This document shows, one piece after another, positions 2,817-22,872 of a DNA stretch of 26,978 nt. The stretch covers positions 1-26,978 of the IMG/VR virus record IMGVR_UViG_3300005764_000069. One strand, 5' to 3'. A program made the position numbers and the translations under genes. The DNA comes from a virus. Lineage: Duplodnaviria > Caudoviricetes. Each line of letters begins with the position of its first letter. The first letter of the stretch is position 1. The notes under the pieces are model-generated. The model worked only from the letters and a program-made list of their open reading frames with translations. It was not told where the DNA came from and made no database searches.

Positions 2817-3134
2817 TTAATTCCTTTCCGCGGCCCGCCTCGCGCGCGTGCGGGCCTCTTCTCGCTTGAGCATAAACTCATAGGTCGCCCGCGCCGCCTC
2901 GCGCTTGGTGAGGCCCTCTTCGCAGGCGTGGCAATCCTCGTCGCCGCCTTGCTCGCGGCACCGGCCCCGGAGGTGCGTCACGCTCCCGAGGACCGATCGG
3001 ATCATGCACTCCCGATGTATCAGACCGGGCTTGCCTTCGACGCCGGTGCGAAACCCGATCATCGTGATCGGGATCGTCATACCGGCCGCGATCTCTTCGC
3101 CGGTGACCGGCTCTTCACAATGAACGCAAAGCAT
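2817..3134 (-). CDS. Zn-binding-like hypothetical protein
   Basis: CVHC...HREC...HL...C...CHAC; first gene downstream of the tRNA. Confidence 0.7.
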   Translation of the reverse strand: MLCVHCEEPVTGEEIAAGMTIPITMIGFRTGVEGKPGLIHRECMIRSVLGSVTHLRGRCREQGGDEDCHACEEGLTKREAARATYEFMLKREEARTRARRAAERN

Positions 3135-3145
3135 AGGATCAAACT

Positions 3146-3222
3146 TGGTGCCCGCGGCAGGACTTGAACCCGCAACCCCGGCGTCCGAAGCGCCGTGCTC
3201 TATCCGGTTGAGCTACACGGGC
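3146..3222 (-). tRNA. tRNA-Arg, anticodon UCG
   Basis: Cloverleaf GCCCGTG/CGCGGGC-ACCA. D-arm GCTC/GAGC carries A20 (Arg identity element). Anticodon arm CGGCG-CTTCGGA-CGCCG; T-arm GCGGG-TTCAAGT-CCTGC; 77 nt. Confidence 0.95.
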
Positions 3223-3509
3223 GGAAGGGGCCCGAAGGGGCACGCCTCGAAGCCCGCATCGGAAAGGGGCTTCGAAAGGGGCGCGCCCTCGGGCCACCCT
3301 GCGAAATCAACAAAAACGTTAAGCAAAAACGCATAAACATGATTGCGGCCAATTGGTTCGAAGCCAAAAGACGGCCGATATCAGGCGAGGTCACGCGGGC
3401 CCGCTCCCGGTCAAACGCCCGTTTTTATTGGCAAATTCAAAGGGTGCGAAATCAGGCGAGACCACGCGAGACCACGCACGGGCACCGGGAAAGGGGCTTC
3501 GAAAGGGGC
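3223..3509. other. Putative attP: arm-type repeats flanking a tRNA-like core (3344-3367)
   Basis: GGAAAGGGGCTTCGAAAGGGGC is identical at 3261-3282 and 3488-3509, with a variant at 3223-3241. A-tract spacer; core on the minus strand reads TTGGCTTCGAACCAATTGGCCGCA; adjacent to the integrase 3' end. Confidence 0.75.
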
Positions 3510-3522
3510 TCGGCCTCGGCCC

Positions 3523-3558
3523 AAAAAAAAAACGGGCGCGGCCCGAAGCCCGCGCCCG
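3523..3558 (-). terminator. Rho-independent terminator of the integrase operon
   Basis: 9-bp GC stem CGGGCGCGG/CCGCGCCCG with a cUUCGg loop, followed by 10 T on the minus strand. Confidence 0.85.
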
Positions 3559-3632
3559 CTCTTCCGATGGCGTCGCCGTTGGATACCTTTCGGCCTCTTA
3601 GGCCTTGGCCCGCGGCGAGTCTCGAAAGCTTG

Positions 3633-4871
3633 TCAATTGACGCCCTCGGCGTCGATCACCGGACCGGTTGACCGTTCGGCCTTAGCCTCGGCGGCGAGCA
3701 TGGCCGCGCGGGCCGCGTCGATCCCGGCCCCGAGGTTCCGGGCGATATCCTCGCCCACATTAACATAGGTCTCAAAGAACGTTTTCCAGTTCGTATGACC
3801 GACGATCTTCATCACCTCGATCGGTTGCAGTTTGAAAACGTGAACCATACGGGTGATCGCCGTGTGGCGCAGATCATGCCAGTGGAGATCCGCGATCCCG
3901 GCGCGCGTGCGGAGGTTCTCAAAACCGCGGCGCGGGTCGATCGTGAAGAGGCGATCCTCGCCACGCGGCCGGGTTTCAAGATAGGCCGTCAAAGCTTGGT
4001 TAAGCGCGCCGGTGATCGGCACCGGCCGCCGGACCGGTTGGTTGCCCTTGTAAGAGGTGGCCCAAAGAATCCGGCCGGGCAAGTCGAGATCCCCGAGCGT
4101 GAGCGCGAGTTGCTCGCCCCGGCGCATTCCGGTCTCAAGGGCCATCGTGATCCCGAAGGCGAGTTCCTTGGATCTCGCTTTCCCGGTGGCTTTGAAGATC
4201 CGCACCTCTTCGCCGCGGGTGATGGTCCGGGCGCGCTTCTTTTCGAGGCTTGGCCGGATGATCGGCTCGCCGTCCTTAAACGGGTTCCGCGTGAGCCAAA
4301 TTTCGGGCCGGTGGCGGATCGCGATATTCAGGACCTTCCGGAGCGCCGCGAGCTCGCGGTGGGCCGTGGTCTTTGAGAGATCGCCGCCGCCGCGCTTTTC
4401 CTCTGTGAGACGCTCCCGCATGAAATCGATCAGATCCTTATAGGTGATCGCGCTTATGTTGAAATCGCCGAAGTATTTTTTGATCGCGCTTAGGTGACTA
4501 ACCACGGCATCAAAAGAGCGAAGCCCGGCGATCTTTTCTTTGCCGTGCATCACGGCCGGTATGATCTCGCCCGCGTGCGCTTTCTTACAGATCGGGCACT
4601 CTTTAAGTTTGCCCGTGTCCTCGTCCGTCTCGGGCAAGCAATGAAGATAGAGATCGCGAAATTTGATCTCGCCTGCGATCGCGGTGCCGTTAAGCTCGGC
4701 CGCGATCGCCTCGTCCATTTCGCGCCGGGCCTTCGCCACGGCCTTGGGGCCACCGGCAACGATCCACTTTTTCTCGGCGCGGCGGCCTTTCTTGTCAATG
4801 TAACGCTTCCGGATCATGGTCCGGCCGTCTGCTAGTTTCTTTTCCGATCCATTTTGGTCGCCTTTAGGCAT
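3633..4871 (-). CDS. int: Tyrosine recombinase/integrase
   Basis: TGMRRGE (R), HDLRH (HxxR), VGH and ETY (catalytic Y); SAM-like core-binding region; next to attP. Confidence 0.95.
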   Translation of the reverse strand: MPKGDQNGSEKKLADGRTMIRKRYIDKKGRRAEKKWIVAGGPKAVAKARREMDEAIAAELNGTAIAGEIKFRDLYLHCLPETDEDTGKLKECPICKKAHAGEIIPAVMHGKEKIAGLRSFDAVVSHLSAIKKYFGDFNISAITYKDLIDFMRERLTEEKRGGGDLSKTTAHRELAALRKVLNIAIRHRPEIWLTRNPFKDGEPIIRPSLEKKRARTITRGEEVRIFKATGKARSKELAFGITMALETGMRRGEQLALTLGDLDLPGRILWATSYKGNQPVRRPVPITGALNQALTAYLETRPRGEDRLFTIDPRRGFENLRTRAGIADLHWHDLRHTAITRMVHVFKLQPIEVMKIVGHTNWKTFFETYVNVGEDIARNLGAGIDAARAAMLAAEAKAERSTGPVIDAEGVN

Positions 4872-11938: not shown

Positions 11939-13025
11939 TGCGAGAAACCCGGCGCGCATTAAGAGCGTGATCAAGATGCTCGATGCGGCCCTCGAAGAGC
12001 GGGGCGAGTTTTTGATCCTGCGGGGCGTGGTTGATCCCGGATCACTCGACGCGATCCTCGTGCCCGATTATCAACGCGGCGTCCTTTCGCCTGCGACGAT
12101 CAACGGATTGGCCCGCGCGATCAAAGACAGCAAGGTCCCGGATATTGAGCTCGCGGTCCGGGGCGGCGATTTCAAAGAGCGCGAGGGGTGCTTCTATATC
12201 AAAGATCCCGTTTTCGTTGTGGACGGCCTGCAACGCATCACCGGCGCGCGCCGCGTGATGCAGGACGGCGGCGAGCCTTACCTCGGCGCGACGCTTTACT
12301 TCAACACGACGATCCCGTGGGAGCGCGAGCGCTTCCGGATCCTCAACGCCGAGCGGGTGAAGGTCTCGGCGAATGTGCTCTTGCGGAATATTCGATCGGA
12401 AAATATCGCGGTCCGGTTGATCTATGAGATGACGCAGAAGGATCGTAACTTCGTTTTACACGAGCGCGTCGCGTGGGGTCAGAACCAAAAACGGACGGAG
12501 GTGCTCACCGCGCTCGTGATGATGAAAACGATCCGCGCTTTGCACGCGCACCTCGGCGGCAAGCTCGGGTCGCGGTGGGATCAAGTGGCCGAATCTATGT
12601 CCCGGTTGATGGCCGCGACGGACCGCGGGATCCTGATGAAAAACGTCGCGACCTTTTTCAATGTGTTGGACTCGTGTTGGTCGATTCGCAATGTGGTTTT
12701 TACTGAAAGGCAAACGCACCTCAAGGGGACCTTTCTCTACGCCTTCGCCGATGTGCTCTCGCGACATTTGAATTTTTGGGTCGATCAACGCCTCGTCGTC
12801 GAGCGCCACCTCTTACGCAAGATCGCCCTTTTTCCGATTCACGATCCGGAGATCAAAGCGTTGGCCCACTCGGCCGGACAGTCGCGCCCGCTTTTGGGCC
12901 ACCTATTGATCGATCACATTAACGCGGGCAAGCGGACCGGACACCTAAAGCCACGGACAAAAGAACCGTGCATCACCGGCGAAGAGCTCGACGAGGCCCC
13001 GGAGGCGAAGGCCGCCGCGGCATAA
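11916..13025 (+). CDS. ParB/Srx-superfamily DGQHR/DndB-like protein
   Basis: PDYQR and VVDGLQR motifs, then F..LN. Confidence 0.7.
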   Translation: MATIKKVSARNPARIKSVIKMLDAALEERGEFLILRGVVDPGSLDAILVPDYQRGVLSPATINGLARAIKDSKVPDIELAVRGGDFKEREGCFYIKDPVFVVDGLQRITGARRVMQDGGEPYLGATLYFNTTIPWERERFRILNAERVKVSANVLLRNIRSENIAVRLIYEMTQKDRNFVLHERVAWGQNQKRTEVLTALVMMKTIRALHAHLGGKLGSRWDQVAESMSRLMAATDRGILMKNVATFFNVLDSCWSIRNVVFTERQTHLKGTFLYAFADVLSRHLNFWVDQRLVVERHLLRKIALFPIHDPEIKALAHSAGQSRPLLGHLLIDHINAGKRTGHLKPRTKEPCITGEELDEAPEAKAAAA

Positions 13026-13039
13026 CGAAAGGGGAAAAA

Positions 13040-13630
13040 ATGATTAAGGGAAAATCTGAGTTGATACCGCGCGCGCAGATCATGACCGGTGATCCGACGC
13101 GGACTTTCACCGTTGACGATGTGGCAATCCTCGCCGCCGATATCCGGGCCGAAGGCCTGCGCGAACCTTTGCTTGTGCGGCCCCGGCCGGATCAGGGCGA
13201 CGGCTTTGTTGAGGTGGTTTTTGGTGAGCGCCGCCTGCGCGCGTGCACCCACGCCGGGCTCGAAAAGATCCCGTGTTTCGTCTCGAATATCGGCGACGAG
13301 GGCGTGGCCGCGGCGCGGGCCGAGTATCTCGCCAAGCGCCAGCGATGGGTCGCTTTATATCCGGCCGTGCGCGCGGCCATGCTCGAAAAGGCGGCGCGCC
13401 TGAAAAAGCTCACGCCCGGACTACTGCAAAAGCTCGCGGCCGAGCTCGGGTTGCCGAAAAAGATCAAGCCCGCGGAGTTTGGCCCGAGCTTGGCCGCCAA
13501 CTTCATCCGGGACGAGGTTAACGCCGGGGCCGCCTCTTACTTTGCGGAAGAGCGGATCGCGCCGTGGGCCAAGGGTCTCGGCGTCGATATCAAAGCGATC
13601 GAGCGGAAAGAAAAAGCAAAGCGACGGTGA
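13040..13630 (+). CDS. ParB N-terminal domain protein
   Basis: LAADIRAEGLREPLLVRP...FGERRLRA; RBS AAAGGGG. Confidence 0.85.
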   Translation: MIKGKSELIPRAQIMTGDPTRTFTVDDVAILAADIRAEGLREPLLVRPRPDQGDGFVEVVFGERRLRACTHAGLEKIPCFVSNIGDEGVAAARAEYLAKRQRWVALYPAVRAAMLEKAARLKKLTPGLLQKLAAELGLPKKIKPAEFGPSLAANFIRDEVNAGAASYFAEERIAPWAKGLGVDIKAIERKEKAKRR

Positions 13631-14123: not shown

Positions 14124-14609
14124 GTGGCGAGCTCGCGCAGGGCAATTGCAGAACGGCGCGCGCGCTTTCGTGATGCAAAGCGGAGCGCCCGAGATCTCGA
14201 CGCGCTCATTCTGGCCCGCGAGCTCGACAAACTCTCGGCCCGCTTTCCTCGCTTCTCATTCTCGATCAACTCGCTCAGCTATCGCGTGCGCTTTCAACTC
14301 CGATCGCCGCAGGAAAAACAAAAGTTAATCCGGCGCGCGCTCGCGAGCTTCGAGCGTCTCGCCCTCGAAGAGATCCGCGACGAGACCGGGCTTGATGCGA
14401 CGGCCGTGGTTGAATCGCTGGCCCCGATGGTCCGGGCGAAAGAGATCGGGCTTTGCCTGCGCGACGGGACGCCGTATGTGCCACCCGTGGGCGCACGCCT
14501 CGACGCTCTCGGGCGACAATTGGATTCGCTCAAGCGGGTCGCGCCTACCGTGCCGGGCGAGCACGGACGGCTCGCCGTTTATTTTCGTTTGACGCCGCGC
14601 GAGGACTAA
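14124..14609 (+). CDS. Hypothetical protein with wHTH-like segment
   Basis: LEEIRDETGLDATAVVESL; TAATG coupling to the MTase. Confidence 0.6.
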   Translation: MASSRRAIAERRARFRDAKRSARDLDALILARELDKLSARFPRFSFSINSLSYRVRFQLRSPQEKQKLIRRALASFERLALEEIRDETGLDATAVVESLAPMVRAKEIGLCLRDGTPYVPPVGARLDALGRQLDSLKRVAPTVPGEHGRLAVYFRLTPRED

Positions 14610-15661
14610 TGGCGGAAGATGTGATCATAAAAGTCGATCCCTCTGAGCTCGTGCCGCTCGAAGAATCCGATTTGATCTTGGCCCGCCTTGATCAAGCTCG
14701 GGCTTTGTTGGCCGAGGCTAAGGACGCGCGCGACGCCAAGCGCGTCGCCGATCTGGCGCAGGCCGCCGAGATCTACGCGCGCCGCCAAAAGCTTTCCGAA
14801 GATGCGATCGCGTACGCCCACGAGATCCGGATCGAGGCGATGACCTTGCTCGGCGAATTCTTACAGGGCGCAGAGTTGAGCGAAGGCGGGCGACCACGAA
14901 AAACCGCGGGATCGGATCCCGTGGTTTTATTTGACACGCCTGCGCCGGTGGTCCGCACGCCCACGCTTGCGGAGATCGGGATCTCGCATGATGAAAGTAA
15001 GACCGCGCAGTTTTTGTCGCGCTTGCGCGAGCGCAACCCGATCGCACACGAAGAGATCAAGCGCGGCGAGCGAAGCATCACGGAGGTCAGGCGCGCCGAG
15101 GCCCGCGAGGCCGCGGCAAAGTTCGATCCCGAGATACCGACGGGCAAATATCGGATCGTGTACGCCGATCCACCGTGGCGTTATGGCGACACGCGCGACG
15201 GTCTCGAAGGCACAACCGGCGCGAGCGCTCACTATCCGACGCTCTCGATCGCTGAGCTTTGCGCGCTTCCGGTGATCGAGTGGATCGAAGATAACGCCGT
15301 GCTTTTTCTTTGGACCACATCACCGCTTTTGTTTGAGTGCGCGCCGGTGATCAAGGCGTGGGGCTTTCAGTACAAGGCGTCTTTTGTGTGGGATAAGATC
15401 CGGCACAACCTCGGGCACTACAACAGCGTCCGTCACGAGCTCTTGTTGGTGTGCACCCGTGGCTCGTGCCTTCCGGACGTTCGCACCCTCTACGATTCCG
15501 TCGTGAGCATTGAGCGGGGCGAGCACTCGGCCAAGCCCGAGGAATTCCGGGTGATGATCGACGCCCTTTATCCACACGGGCGTCGGCTTGAGATGTTCGC
15601 CCGCACGAAGGCGGACAAGTGGGAGATCTATGGCAACGAACTATTACAAGGCGCAGCTTGA
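14609..15661 (+). CDS. MT-A70 family N6-adenine methyltransferase with helical N-terminal extension
   Basis: IVYADPPW, HYPTLS, LFLWTT, WGF.YK, HSAKP and LEMFAR. Confidence 0.92.
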   Translation: MAEDVIIKVDPSELVPLEESDLILARLDQARALLAEAKDARDAKRVADLAQAAEIYARRQKLSEDAIAYAHEIRIEAMTLLGEFLQGAELSEGGRPRKTAGSDPVVLFDTPAPVVRTPTLAEIGISHDESKTAQFLSRLRERNPIAHEEIKRGERSITEVRRAEAREAAAKFDPEIPTGKYRIVYADPPWRYGDTRDGLEGTTGASAHYPTLSIAELCALPVIEWIEDNAVLFLWTTSPLLFECAPVIKAWGFQYKASFVWDKIRHNLGHYNSVRHELLLVCTRGSCLPDVRTLYDSVVSIERGEHSAKPEEFRVMIDALYPHGRRLEMFARTKADKWEIYGNELLQGAA

Positions 15662-16652: not shown

Positions 16653-17260
16653 TTAACACCCGGATGACGATCAAGATCGCGGGCTCAACGGCCCTCGATA
16701 AACAAACGACGTTCGCCTTAGCCTCGGCGCTCACCGCGACGGCGAAAGAGATCCAAGCGGGCGTCATTCAAGAGATCGAATCGGGCTTCACGGTCCGGAC
16801 CGGGTGGGACAAACCGTCGAATATTTTCGGCGTGCGGATCAAGCCCGCGACGAAACAAGATCTCTCGGCGTGGATCGGCACCGCGGCGGACTGGCTCGAA
16901 AAGTTCGTCCAAAAGCCCGCGGGATCCTTTGTGATGAAAACACCCGCGGGCGATTTCCTCGCGATCCCGACAAAGAACGTCAAGCGCACGAAGCGCGAGA
17001 TCATCACGAAGGCGCAACGCCCGCGGGCCCTCGTGGGCAAACGTGATTTTGTGATCGTCACAAAGCGCGGAGTGCGCGTGCTCTTTCAGCGCAAGGGCCG
17101 CGGCAAAGCCTCGCGCCTCGTGGCGCTTTATATCCTCGTCCCGCGCGCGCGGATCCGGGAGAAGGATTTTTTAGGCGCGCCCACGGAGCGGATCTTTGCC
17201 CGGCGCTTTGGGCCAATCTTCGAGGCCGCCGTCGCCAAGGCCTTCGCGACGGCGCGGTGA
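16649..17260 (+). CDS. Putative tail-completion (gpZ-like) protein
   Basis: Basic protein, ALASALTATAKEIQ...FTVRT...; inferred from similarity recall and position. Confidence 0.5.
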   Translation: MINTRMTIKIAGSTALDKQTTFALASALTATAKEIQAGVIQEIESGFTVRTGWDKPSNIFGVRIKPATKQDLSAWIGTAADWLEKFVQKPAGSFVMKTPAGDFLAIPTKNVKRTKREIITKAQRPRALVGKRDFVIVTKRGVRVLFQRKGRGKASRLVALYILVPRARIREKDFLGAPTERIFARRFGPIFEAAVAKAFATAR

Positions 17261-17388
17261 TCATCCGGCCGCAAGTTTGGCGCGCGCCTGACGGCTCACG
17301 GCCGATCACTTATGCGATCTTTTCGGGCGGGACCTTTGTTTGTTACGCGCGAACCTTTTGCGGGGCCGCGCGCGCGCTTGAGGAAATC

Positions 17389-18621
17389 ATGAGGACCGAC
17401 GGCGTTAAGAAACTAAAAACGATCGAGGATCTGAGCTTCGACGATAAGAACGCCAACCGCGGCACCGATCGCGGCCGGGCCTTCGCCGGTCACTCGCTCG
17501 ATCGTTACGGCGCAGGCCGATCGGTGCTCACGGACCGGCGCGGCAAATTGATTGCCGGAAACAAGATCGGCGAGCAAGCCCGCGCGCGCGGCCTTGAGAT
17601 CCTCGTGGTCCCGACACGCGGCGATCAACTCGTGGTCGTGCAACGCACCGATCTCGATATGGACCGGGATCCCGCGGCGCGCGAGTTGGCGATTGCAGAC
17701 AACCGCGGCGGCGAGCTCGGGCTTGAGTGGGATCCCGAGATCCTCGACGTGCTACAACAAGAGGGCGTCAACCTCGATCAAATGTTCACCGCGGCCGAGC
17801 TCGACGAGCTCGCGAGCGTCGAGGCCCCGGCCACCGGCGAGGACGCCCCGGCCGCGGAGTTGATCGATCGCGCGGCCGAGCTCAACAAAAAATGGAAAGT
17901 TAAGCGCGGGCAAGTTTGGGCGATCGGCGATCACCGGCTCGCCTGCGGCGATGCCACGGACCGGCGCGACATCGCTCTTTTATTCGACGGCCCGATCGAC
18001 GCCGTGATCACGGATCCGCCGTATTGCTCGGGCGGGTTTCAAGAGGCGGGCAAGGCCTCGGGATCGATCGGCCGCCGCGGTAAACACCGGATCGCAAACG
18101 ACACGCTTTCCACCCGTGGCTATATCGCGCTTTTGAAAACGGTCTTGAGCAATGTGGGCGCGGGCGTGCTCTACATTTTCACGGACTGGCGCATGTGGAT
18201 CAATCTCTTCGACGTGGCCGAGAGCTCGGGCTACGGCGTGCGAAACATGATCGTGTGGGACAAGGGGACGCCCGGTATGGGCCAAGGGTGGCGCTCTCAA
18301 CATGAATTGATCTTGTGCGCGATGCGGGTGGTCCAACCTTTCGATCCCCACAAGGCGCAGGGCAACGTCGTCCAGATCGCGCGCACCGGCAACGTGAATC
18401 ACCCCACGGAAAAACCCGTCGAGTTAATCAAGACGCTTTTATCCGTCACGGATATCGCGCGCACGATTTACGATCCGTTCTGCGGGAGTGGTCCAACGTT
18501 GATCGCTTGCGAGGCGATGCACCGGACCGGCTTTGCGATGGATCTCGATCCGAAGTTCTGCGCCGTTACGCTTGAGCGCCTCACCTTGGCCGGTCTCAAG
18601 CCTGAATTGATGAAGAGGTGA
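17389..18621 (+). CDS. ParB-like N-terminus fused to N4/N6 DNA methyltransferase
   Basis: NAN...SL..YGAGRS...IAGN; TDPPY, HPTEKP and DPFCGSG; GAGGA RBS before ATG 17389. Confidence 0.9.
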   Translation: MRTDGVKKLKTIEDLSFDDKNANRGTDRGRAFAGHSLDRYGAGRSVLTDRRGKLIAGNKIGEQARARGLEILVVPTRGDQLVVVQRTDLDMDRDPAARELAIADNRGGELGLEWDPEILDVLQQEGVNLDQMFTAAELDELASVEAPATGEDAPAAELIDRAAELNKKWKVKRGQVWAIGDHRLACGDATDRRDIALLFDGPIDAVITDPPYCSGGFQEAGKASGSIGRRGKHRIANDTLSTRGYIALLKTVLSNVGAGVLYIFTDWRMWINLFDVAESSGYGVRNMIVWDKGTPGMGQGWRSQHELILCAMRVVQPFDPHKAQGNVVQIARTGNVNHPTEKPVELIKTLLSVTDIARTIYDPFCGSGPTLIACEAMHRTGFAMDLDPKFCAVTLERLTLAGLKPELMKR

Positions 18622-22326: not shown

Positions 22327-22872
22327 ATGAGCGAGACCACGGCCGATCCCGTCGATCCCGGCGACAAGAAAACATTTACGCAGGATTACACCGCGCTCTT
22401 AGGCGAGATCTCAGCCACGGAAAAGATCGTCGCTTCGGCGTGGTCCGTGCCCGATGGTCTCACAGTAATGAGCGAGGCCTTCGACGATACCTCGGCCACG
22501 ATCAAGATCGATTTTGCCAACGCCGCGATCGGCGTGAACTACTCTTGCTATAACGAGATCACAACGGACTCCGGCGAGGCGCGCCGCCGCGCGCTCGTGA
22601 TCCCGGTCCGGGACTCCGCGAGCTTTAGCGCCAACGCCGCCGAGTACAAGGCAACCCTCGACGCCATCCGGGCGGCGATCGCAAAGACGGCCACGCGCGG
22701 TCAATTGCGCCGTCAGATCGGCGATAAAACGATCGAGTGGATGAGCGTCGAGGAATTGATGAAGGCCGAGACGCGATTCCAGCAACTTTACAACGACGCC
22801 AAGCGCGCCGAGCGCGTCGCGCAGGGCGGATCCTTTATGACCACGATCCGCACGCGCTTTGTTGACTGCTAA
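22327..22872 (+). CDS. Beta-sandwich adaptor domain fused to gpW-like head completion domain
   Basis: N-terminal DPGD...DY...W...Y...N.ITT.SG...R. C-terminal LDAI.AAI...QIGDKTIEW.S.EELMK. Located between terL and portal. Confidence 0.65.
   Translation: MSETTADPVDPGDKKTFTQDYTALLGEISATEKIVASAWSVPDGLTVMSEAFDDTSATIKIDFANAAIGVNYSCYNEITTDSGEARRRALVIPVRDSASFSANAAEYKATLDAIRAAIAKTATRGQLRRQIGDKTIEWMSVEELMKAETRFQQLYNDAKRAERVAQGGSFMTTIRTRFVDC

What the first reader, a model, noticed from the sequence alone, without database searches (positions are those of the whole stretch)
3146..3509. attP core mimics only a tRNA-Arg(UCG) anticodon arm, with a full replacement tRNA of the same anticodon downstream
Seen: between the arm-type repeats the minus strand reads TTGG-CTTCGAA-CCAA-T-TGGCC-GCA (3367-3344). 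This is an anticodon stem-loop with TCG, a variable loop and the start of a T-stem, after which tRNA similarity stops. About 120 bp downstream, in the same orientation, is a complete tRNA-Arg(UCG) with a different anticodon stem (CGGCG/CGCCG). Established: tyrosine integrases often cross over in tRNA anticodon loops and attP normally restores the 3' half. tRNA-dependent lysogeny has been reported for some actinobacteriophages. Inference: integration destroys the host tRNA, and the phage copy, recoded so it is not itself an att target, rescues it, possibly transcribed from the host tRNA promoter.
Basis: partly seen in the sequence, partly recalled or inferred. Interest (0 to 1): 0.85.

Follow-up and report, generated by a model that had tools for sequence, protein, structure and literature searches.

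The report
Phage attP with adjacent replacement tRNA
This soil phage's likely integration site keeps only the anticodon arm of an arginine tRNA gene, so inserting there would likely break the host's tRNA, and the complete arginine tRNA gene 121 bases further on likely replaces it: probably a new example of a known strategy called tRNA-dependent lysogeny.

Summary
Observation confirmed. The 7-base loop CTTCGAA (3363-3357) lies 125 nt past the arm repeats downstream of an intact tyrosine integrase. Eight relatives measured have a tRNA anticodon loop 115-131 nt past their arms and carry the whole tRNA 3' half; here T-arm and acceptor strand are missing. Nineteen contiguous bases match a real chromosomal tRNA-Arg(TCG) in two non-host genomes; the 24-mer was not found in viral contigs, nor a 20-mer of it in any tRNA of 185,579 genomes. 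A complete tRNA-Arg(TCG) follows 121 nt later, absent from the two syntenic relatives. Best reading (0.68): attP that cuts host tRNA-Arg(UCG) without repair, with a replacement tRNA. Not shown: host, attB, prophage junctions, essentiality, promoter. 'Recoded' is unsupported: the phage tRNA looks like a natural tRNA of another lineage, though it does lack the core. The strategy is published (actinophages, pelagiphages, rhizobial phages), and this scan noted it four times on other DNA. New here: the isoacceptor, a probable Acidobacteriota host (weak lead), canonical close relatives as controls, and an unexplained 80-nt hairpin abutting the tRNA.

The parts
3633..4871 (-). Tyrosine integrase, 412 aa, catalytic R250/H332/R335/H359/Y369 present
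   Evidence: PF00589 E 1.1e-15; phrog_1; residues invariant in 23-sequence alignment A1 and read out
3523..3558 (-). Terminator-like hairpin with T10 after the integrase; would insulate attP and the tRNA from int read-through
   Evidence: terminator-like site 3545-3533 plus T tail; extent of the longer stem read from the sequence and the fold
3489..3509 (-). Proximal (P) arm-type repeat pair, 12-nt period
   Evidence: direct repeat D1; 7-mers at 3491-3497 and 3503-3509; paired repeats at the same place in relatives L011, L007, L036, L037
3385..3475 (.). Second repeat, three 10-nt copies (3385-3394, 3456-3465, 3466-3475); candidate directionality-factor or accessory sites, function not tested
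   Evidence: repeat D2; coordinates
3344..3367 (-). attP core: tRNA-Arg(TCG) anticodon arm, variable loop and start of T-stem; 3349-3367 identical to a chromosomal tRNA-Arg(TCG)
3357..3363 (-). Predicted 7-bp overlap (anticodon loop CTTCGAA), 125 nt from the proximal arms
   Evidence: family spacing 115-131 nt; identity of four Arg(CCT) sites with the complete tRNA gene of L013 starts at the first loop base
3262..3282 (-). Distal (P') arm-type repeat pair
   Evidence: direct repeat D1; 7-mers at 3264-3270 and 3276-3282
3223..3302 (-). 80-nt long hairpin ending 2 nt before the tRNA 5' end; contains the distal arms and two more arm-like 7-mers (3225-3231, 3235-3241); role unexplained
   Evidence: -55.6 kcal/mol, z -5.78, 0 of 200 shuffles as stable; equivalent stretches of L036, L037, L005 z -0.47, -0.85, -0.35
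3146..3222 (-). Complete tRNA-Arg(UCG) gene with encoded CCA, A20, A15:U48 and loop CTTCGGA; predicted replacement tRNA
   Evidence: its 3' part joined to the next ORF is also held by a 151-nt record of another study with 0 differences (record 18)
2817..3134 (-). Small Cys/His-rich ORF directly after the tRNA; synteny marker (79% identical to L005, 53% to L036, where no tRNA precedes it)

Best explanation
The stretch between the arm-type repeats is likely the phage's attP, whose integrase would cross over in the anticodon loop of a host tRNA-Arg(UCG) gene and leave it broken, and the complete tRNA-Arg(UCG) gene 121 nt downstream likely compensates. Shown: intact tyrosine integrase; paired repeats either side of a core; an anticodon loop at the family's spacing; no T-arm or acceptor strand after it; a complete co-oriented tRNA of the same anticodon that the two syntenic relatives lack. 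Inferred: crossover within CTTCGAA; attL = host promoter, 5' tRNA half, truncated arm, P' arms, hairpin, phage tRNA; the phage tRNA was acquired from another bacterial lineage rather than recoded, after which the attP 3' half decayed; its G37 and different stem make it a poor target for the phage's own integrase; transcription likely comes by read-through from the host tRNA promoter, since no promoter-like or terminator-like site was found in between.
For: Family behaviour: of 16 relatives with at least 250 nt downstream of int, 8 carry a co-oriented T-arm plus CCA 3' half (Arg-CCT x4, Lys-CTT x3, Arg-ACG x1), 1 more a Leu-CAA 3' half seen by eye (L012), 1 a complete antisense tRNA-Arg(CCT) (L013), 6 none; none has a complete co-oriented tRNA within 900 nt. 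Arm-to-loop spacing is 125 nt here against 128, 125, 115, 129, 126, 127, 131 and 128. The integrase sits in a 99/99 clade of 5 with L036 and L037, which keep the full Arg-CCT 3' half. A chromosomal tRNA-Arg(TCG) in genomes G192 and G306 shares 19 contiguous nt with the core. Five of 61 viral matches are att-type 3' halves with this TCG arm, 4 of them beside an integrase, so such tRNAs are likely real phage targets. The distal-arm-to-ORF distance is 148 nt here, 60 in L036 and 91 in L005. Shuffle control 2 of 20,000. In 4 of 5 genomes with a TCG tRNA the pattern found ACG and TCG but no CCG tRNA, so UCG can be the only CGG reader. Precedent.
Against: No host tRNA or prophage junction was found: 0 viral matches to the 24-mer, 2 non-tRNA matches to a 20-mer in 185,579 genomes, 0 metagenome matches to the core extended by a T-arm consensus, no joint in four runs. 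The genomes with the 19-nt match are Pseudomonadota, where no close integrase was found in 301 genomes searched (no positive control), so they are probably not the host. The same stem is far commoner on tRNA-Arg(ACG) (33 of 35 matching genomes), and one ACG type matches 21 of the 24 core bases, as many as the TCG tRNA does. All 6 TCG-bearing genomes checked also have ACG, and 2 of them have CCG too, so the target may be dispensable. The close relative L005 has no tRNA 3' half and no tRNA gene in a 100%-complete record. No second phage with this truncated core plus a TCG tRNA was found among 43 viral matches.
Confidence: 0.68

Rival explanations
1. Same attP and same target, but the host tRNA-Arg(UCG) is dispensable; the 3' half decayed for lack of selection and the phage tRNA is cargo that helps CGA/CGG decoding or counters tRNA-cutting defences.
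For: TCG co-occurs with ACG in all 6 genomes checked and with CCG in 2. L005 lacks both a tRNA 3' half and any tRNA gene. The phage uses CGG 144 and CGA 41 times among 482 CGN codons in 19 ORFs. Most viral tRNA-Arg(TCG) matches are complete genes (56 of 61).
Against: The only tRNA in the 27-kb record has the anticodon of the core and sits just outside the P' arm in the orientation that would place it behind the host promoter; syntenic relatives with intact 3' halves lack it.
Confidence: 0.14
2. The target is the host tRNA-Arg(ACG), or another site, with the wobble base mismatched or outside the overlap; the phage UCG tRNA would then replace it by broader wobble reading.
For: TTGG/CCAA stems are mostly on ACG tRNAs (33 of 35 genomes); one type matches 21 of 24 core bases; family member L041 targets Arg-ACG; a lone UCG tRNA can serve all CGN codons in one Mycoplasma (PMC3711424 passages).
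Against: In the family, identity starts at the first loop base and includes the anticodon; overlap mismatches are described as strongly deleterious; the ACG arm in L041 has a different stem; real TCG tRNAs give the longer contiguous match.
Confidence: 0.08
3. The attP is a decayed relic: the phage no longer integrates here (or does so only at secondary sites) and the tRNA is unrelated to lysogeny.
For: No junction seen; no exact long match to any tRNA; no recurrence found.
Against: The integrase frame and catalytic residues are intact; arm pairs are near-identical and at family spacing; a variant in another sample keeps 3363-3651 with 4 substitutions and 4 gap letters (record 28).
Confidence: 0.06
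4. The crossover lies inside the complete tRNA at 3146-3222 (the contig is a prophage end or a chimera) and the upstream arm mimic is chance.
For: Hairpins with this 16-mer are often chance (32 of 43 viral matches); no listed record bridged 3223-3362 in the runs laid.
Against: Both arm pairs would lie on one side of the crossover; the DNA after the tRNA is phage (ORF 79% identical to L005; endolysin); the upstream loop, not the tRNA, is at the family's spacing.
Confidence: 0.04

Closest known systems
tRNA-dependent lysogeny of actinobacteriophages (Fionnbharth K4, Cluster L, Gaia X, BrutonGaster/OneUp CQ2, Mollymur DL; PMC10865867, parts 1, 2, 4, 5 of 8 read)
   Same: Tyrosine integrase, arm pairs around a short core inside a tRNA gene (8-17 bp there, up to 19 here), no rebuilt tRNA, same-isotype phage tRNA not closely related to the target, close relatives that do rebuild the tRNA.
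   Different: Arg-UCG instead of Lys-UUU, Ile2-CAU or Leu-CAA; a host probably outside Actinomycetota; tRNA abutting the P' arm with no promoter found, whereas the Fionnbharth tRNA overlaps gene 37 and has its own tested promoter; requirement shown there, untested here.
HTVC019P-type pelagiphages HTVC019P, 025P, 119P, 200P (bioRxiv 10.1101/410191, section 11 and passages read)
   Same: Core in the middle of a host tRNA, not complemented; phage tRNA of the same isotype presumed to substitute, next to the integrase in HTVC119P.
   Different: T7-like podoviruses of SAR11; tRNA-Cys/Leu; junctions mapped there, not here.
Rhizobium vTRX32-1-like phages (PMC8631192, passages) and Lo5R7ANS-like prophages of Sinorhizobium meliloti (PMC11476347, passages)
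   Same: Complete replacement tRNA; for vTRX32-1 the authors note that it lacks the 12-bp att motif and would prevent super-integration; in S. meliloti the replacement resembles tRNAs of other species more than the host's.
   Different: tRNA-Leu, alphaproteobacterial hosts; vTRX32-1 is an autographivirus; the idea that the copy is not an att target is therefore already in print.
Canonical anticodon-loop-targeting members of this integrase family (L036, L037, L011, L049, L007, L008, L040, L041)
   Same: Same layout: int, terminator or short spacer, arm pair, 115-131 nt, anticodon loop, and a distal arm pair where the phage side is held.
   Different: They carry the whole 3' half to CCA and no complete tRNA.

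Membership tests
tRNA-dependent lysogeny (PMC10865867) | Phage-encoded tyrosine integrase | tested here: met
   PF00589 and phrog_1; catalytic residues present
tRNA-dependent lysogeny (PMC10865867) | attB overlaps a host tRNA gene | tested here: inconclusive
   Family position and 19-nt match to a tRNA-Arg(TCG) of non-host genomes; host gene and junctions not found
tRNA-dependent lysogeny (PMC10865867) | Short common core; no functional tRNA rebuilt at the junction | tested here: met
   No T-loop or acceptor strand between core and phage tRNA; no tRNA call at thresholds 80-95. Sequence-level only
tRNA-dependent lysogeny (PMC10865867) | [quoted passage not shown] | tested here: met
   tRNA-Arg(TCG) at 3146-3222; same anticodon as the core, whose target is inferred
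tRNA-dependent lysogeny (PMC10865867) | Disrupted host tRNA is essential and non-redundant | not testable with these tools
   Host unknown; in non-host genomes TCG occurs without a detected CCG in 4 of 6 and with it in 2 of 6
tRNA-dependent lysogeny (PMC10865867) | Phage tRNA is required for viable lysogens | not testable with these tools
   Needs genetics in the host
tRNA-dependent lysogeny (PMC10865867) | Phage tRNA is expressed in the lysogen | tested here: inconclusive
   0 sigma-70-type sites at 9 of 12 in 3000-3750; best relaxed matches 8 of 12; no RNA run holds the stretch
Canonical tRNA-restoring attP (anticodon-loop class; class name recalled from Williams 2002, not read) | Crossover core starts at the anticodon loop between arm pairs | tested here: met
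   Spacing 125 nt against 115-131 in eight relatives
Canonical tRNA-restoring attP (anticodon-loop class; class name recalled from Williams 2002, not read) | attP supplies the whole 3' half of the tRNA | tested here: not met
   Similarity ends at the start of the T-stem

The most novel reading that the evidence does not exclude
An integration-gated tRNA: the replacement tRNA-Arg(UCG) has no promoter of its own, is shielded by the int terminator in the free phage, and is switched on only when correct-site, correct-orientation integration puts it behind the host tRNA promoter, with the 80-nt hairpin acting as a processing signal that frees it from the broken host transcript. Needing only the 7-bp loop, the phage could then use any host tRNA-Arg(UCG) whatever its stems, and the lysogen's CGG/CGA decoding would depend on the prophage. 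It would be the first case in Acidobacteriota found by my searches.
Probability: 0.25. Interest if true: 0.65.

Novelty: new member of a known kind. Interest (0 to 1): 0.42.

Why it matters
If true, it extends tRNA-dependent lysogeny to a new isoacceptor and probably to phages of an abundant, little-studied soil phylum. It also bears on an open point of the 2024 paper, the order of events: relatives within and outside this integrase's clade keep the full 3' half, so truncation plus a foreign tRNA looks derived here, and the leftover variable loop and T-stem start look like a partly decayed half. The layout makes the host-promoter idea directly testable. The strategy itself is known, so interest is moderate.

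Tried and rejected
Exact 24-mer in viral contigs: 0. 20-mer in 185,579 genomes: 2 matches, neither in a tRNA, about chance. Core plus T-arm patterns: 0 in viral contigs and 0 in metagenomes; both demanded more identity than the family needs. Phage and plasmid collections gave only distant integrases and generic tRNAs. Cluster look-ups named no organism. Whole-genome searches could be centred only on Pseudomonadota genomes, so Acidobacteriota tRNA sets were not examined; no close integrase in 301 Pseudomonadota genomes (no positive control). Laying four soil runs (48-84% of each read, contigs only) showed no joint and no listed record across 3223-3362: no evidence either way. Relatives of the phage tRNA's anticodon arm in viral contigs: 1 unrelated match. 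A search for recurrence through the 16-mer (43 matches) and through the downstream ORF (0) found none. Promoter scans found nothing at 9 of 12. My first guess of an alphaproteobacterial host was dropped. Reading L005's hairpin at the core position as a tRNA-Gly arm was considered and left open. L012 and L049 were mis-placed by the first geometry script; L049 was recomputed and L012 left out of the spacing list. No structure or complex prediction was run.

Full report
Setting. The window is a whole viral record, linear and estimated 69% complete, held by soil metagenome runs. It has lambda-like head genes, a GH25 endolysin and a tyrosine integrase at 3633-4871 on the minus strand with R250, H332, R335, H359 and Y369 intact. 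Phage genes lie on both sides of the site, so it is in attP form. The host is unknown. The nearest Atlas cluster of the integrase is commonest in Acidobacteriota (a lead only), and no close homologue was found in 301 Pseudomonadota genomes (no positive control).

Observation. The core and the tRNA are as described. In integrase orientation the order is: terminator-like hairpin, arm pair 3509-3489, three copies of a second repeat, core 3367-3344, arm pair 3282-3262, two more arm-like 7-mers, tRNA-Arg(TCG) 3222-3146, small ORF 3134-2817. No T-loop or acceptor strand follows the core. The tRNA folds as a cloverleaf with CCA, A20 and an A15:U48 pair (role of A20 as an arginine identity element recalled). 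Its loop is CTTCGGA, one mismatch to the core loop. In 20,000 shuffles of the inter-arm region the full TCG motif arose twice, any anticodon-like stem-loop 1,761 times. Of 43 viral matches to the 16-mer hairpin, 32 were not in tRNAs. So the hairpin alone proves little; position and context carry the case.

Family evidence. Relatives were collected with a 23-protein alignment. I examined 21 distinct close loci; 5 end within 63 nt of the int stop and were dropped. Of the other 16, eight carry a co-oriented tRNA 3' half with T-arm and CCA (L036, L037, L011, L049 Arg-CCT; L007, L008, L040 Lys-CTT; L041 Arg-ACG), L012 has a Leu-CAA half seen by eye, L013 has a complete antisense tRNA-Arg(CCT), and six show none. 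None has a complete co-oriented tRNA within 900 nt. The four Arg-CCT sites start to match the complete L013 gene at the first base of the anticodon loop. The distance from the proximal arms to the loop is 128, 125, 115, 129, 126, 127, 131 and 128 nt in the eight, and 125 nt to CTTCGAA in the window (arm motifs were picked by eye per locus). In a tree of 20 proteins the window's integrase falls in a 99/99 clade with L036, L037, L005 and L038, with restoring members also outside it. The ORF after the tRNA is 79% identical to that of L005 and 53% to that of L036, where it follows the distal arms after 91 and 60 nt, against 148 here. The tRNA is thus an insertion specific to the phage with the truncated core.

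Is the core a real tRNA arm? The strict tests failed: 24-mer, 0 viral matches; 20-mer, 2 non-tRNA matches in 185,579 genomes; core plus T-arm consensus, 0 metagenome matches. A looser pattern gave 61 viral matches, 60 with TTGG left of the loop; 56 are complete tRNA-Arg(TCG) genes and 5 are att-type 3' halves, 4 beside an integrase. In 301 Pseudomonadota genomes, 35 had this stem: 33 on ACG and 2 on TCG tRNAs. The chromosomal TCG gene of G192, also in G306 (2 of 7 in that family), shares 19 contiguous bases with the core. These are probably not the host, but they show the arm is genuine. One ACG type matches 21 of 24 bases, the same total as the TCG gene, which keeps an ACG target open at low odds.

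Recoded or acquired? The phage tRNA shares 60 of 77 bases with the TCG tRNA of G076 and 50 of 77 with the G192 type that the core matches. Deep soil contigs align to 3155-3206 with about 6 differences; the only one listed, away from contig ends, is A37. L014 has a natural G37 TCG loop next to another integrase. So acquisition from another lineage fits better than recoding. That it escapes the phage's integrase is inferred from the loop mismatch and stem difference, untested.

Expression. No sigma-70-type site reaches 9 of 12 in 3000-3750, and the only terminator-like site is the one after int; best relaxed matches are 8 of 12. Read-through from the host promoter at attL is therefore possible but unshown; the host may use promoters the scan misses. 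An 80-nt hairpin ends 2 nt before the tRNA (z -5.78; z -0.35 to -0.85 in three relatives). It may be an RNA processing signal or just inverted arm copies.

Is rescue needed? Among six non-host genomes with a TCG tRNA, all have ACG, four had no CCG match and two had one (completeness not given). The phage uses CGG 144 and CGA 41 times in 482 CGN codons of 19 ORFs. L005 has neither a tRNA half nor any tRNA gene in a complete record, showing that this clade can lose the half without a replacement. Four runs laid gave no junction; one record from another study holds the tRNA-ORF joint unchanged, and one from another sample holds 3363-3651 as a variant.

Literature. PMC10865867 (parts 1, 2, 4, 5 of 8 read) defines tRNA-dependent lysogeny with cores of 8-17 bp and shows the requirement genetically. 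bioRxiv 10.1101/410191 (passages and section 11), PMC8631192 (passages) and PMC11476347 (passages) describe replacement tRNAs in pelagiphages and rhizobial phages, including lack of the att motif in the phage copy. PMC12429752 and PMC3711424 were seen as passages. Five searches (listings only for the other papers) returned no title or abstract on an Arg-UCG or Acidobacteriota case; the library lacks most subscription papers and no supplements were read. Four earlier notes of this scan describe the same strategy on other DNA, one with the host-promoter layout; I did not check them.

Verdict. Real feature; attP core very likely; non-restoring integration at tRNA-Arg(UCG) with a replacement tRNA likely (0.68); dependence, host and promoter untested. 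New member of a known kind, interest 0.42.

Noticed in passing
window 3223-3302 (-): Near-perfect 80-nt hairpin (z -5.78) directly 5' of the tRNA, built partly from arm-type copies; much weaker in three relatives.
   Followed up: partly
L005 6299-6546 (record G001): Close relative with clear arm pairs but no tRNA 3' half and no tRNA gene in a 100%-complete record; a GC hairpin with a 7-nt loop sits at the family's core position. Target unknown.
   Followed up: partly
L013 6266-6342 (-): A complete tRNA-Arg(CCT) points at the 3' end of the integrase 15 nt from its stop, the reverse of the family layout; Arg-CCT tRNAs of this group have an unusual TTGGAAT T-loop.
   Followed up: no
L140, L165, L167, L184, L139: Five other att-type sites carry complete 3' halves of tRNA-Arg(TCG) with the same anticodon stem; four lie beside integrases distant from this one.
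   Followed up: partly
G192, G028, G306, G040: Pseudomonadota genomes in which the pattern found tRNA-Arg ACG and TCG but no CCG; the TCG genes look like anticodon-switched ACG genes.
   Followed up: partly
window 3385-3394, 3456-3475: Three copies of a 10-nt repeat between the proximal arms and the core, two preceded by the same 5 bases; candidate Xis/RDF sites.
   Followed up: no
window 14453-15661 and 17257-18621 (+): Two DNA methyltransferase genes (MT-A70 and N6_N4 with a ParB-like N-terminal part) and a ParB-domain gene at 12968-13630.
   Followed up: no
window 22327-22872 (+): A Gp77-like domain fused to a head-tail joining domain between terminase and portal.
   Followed up: no
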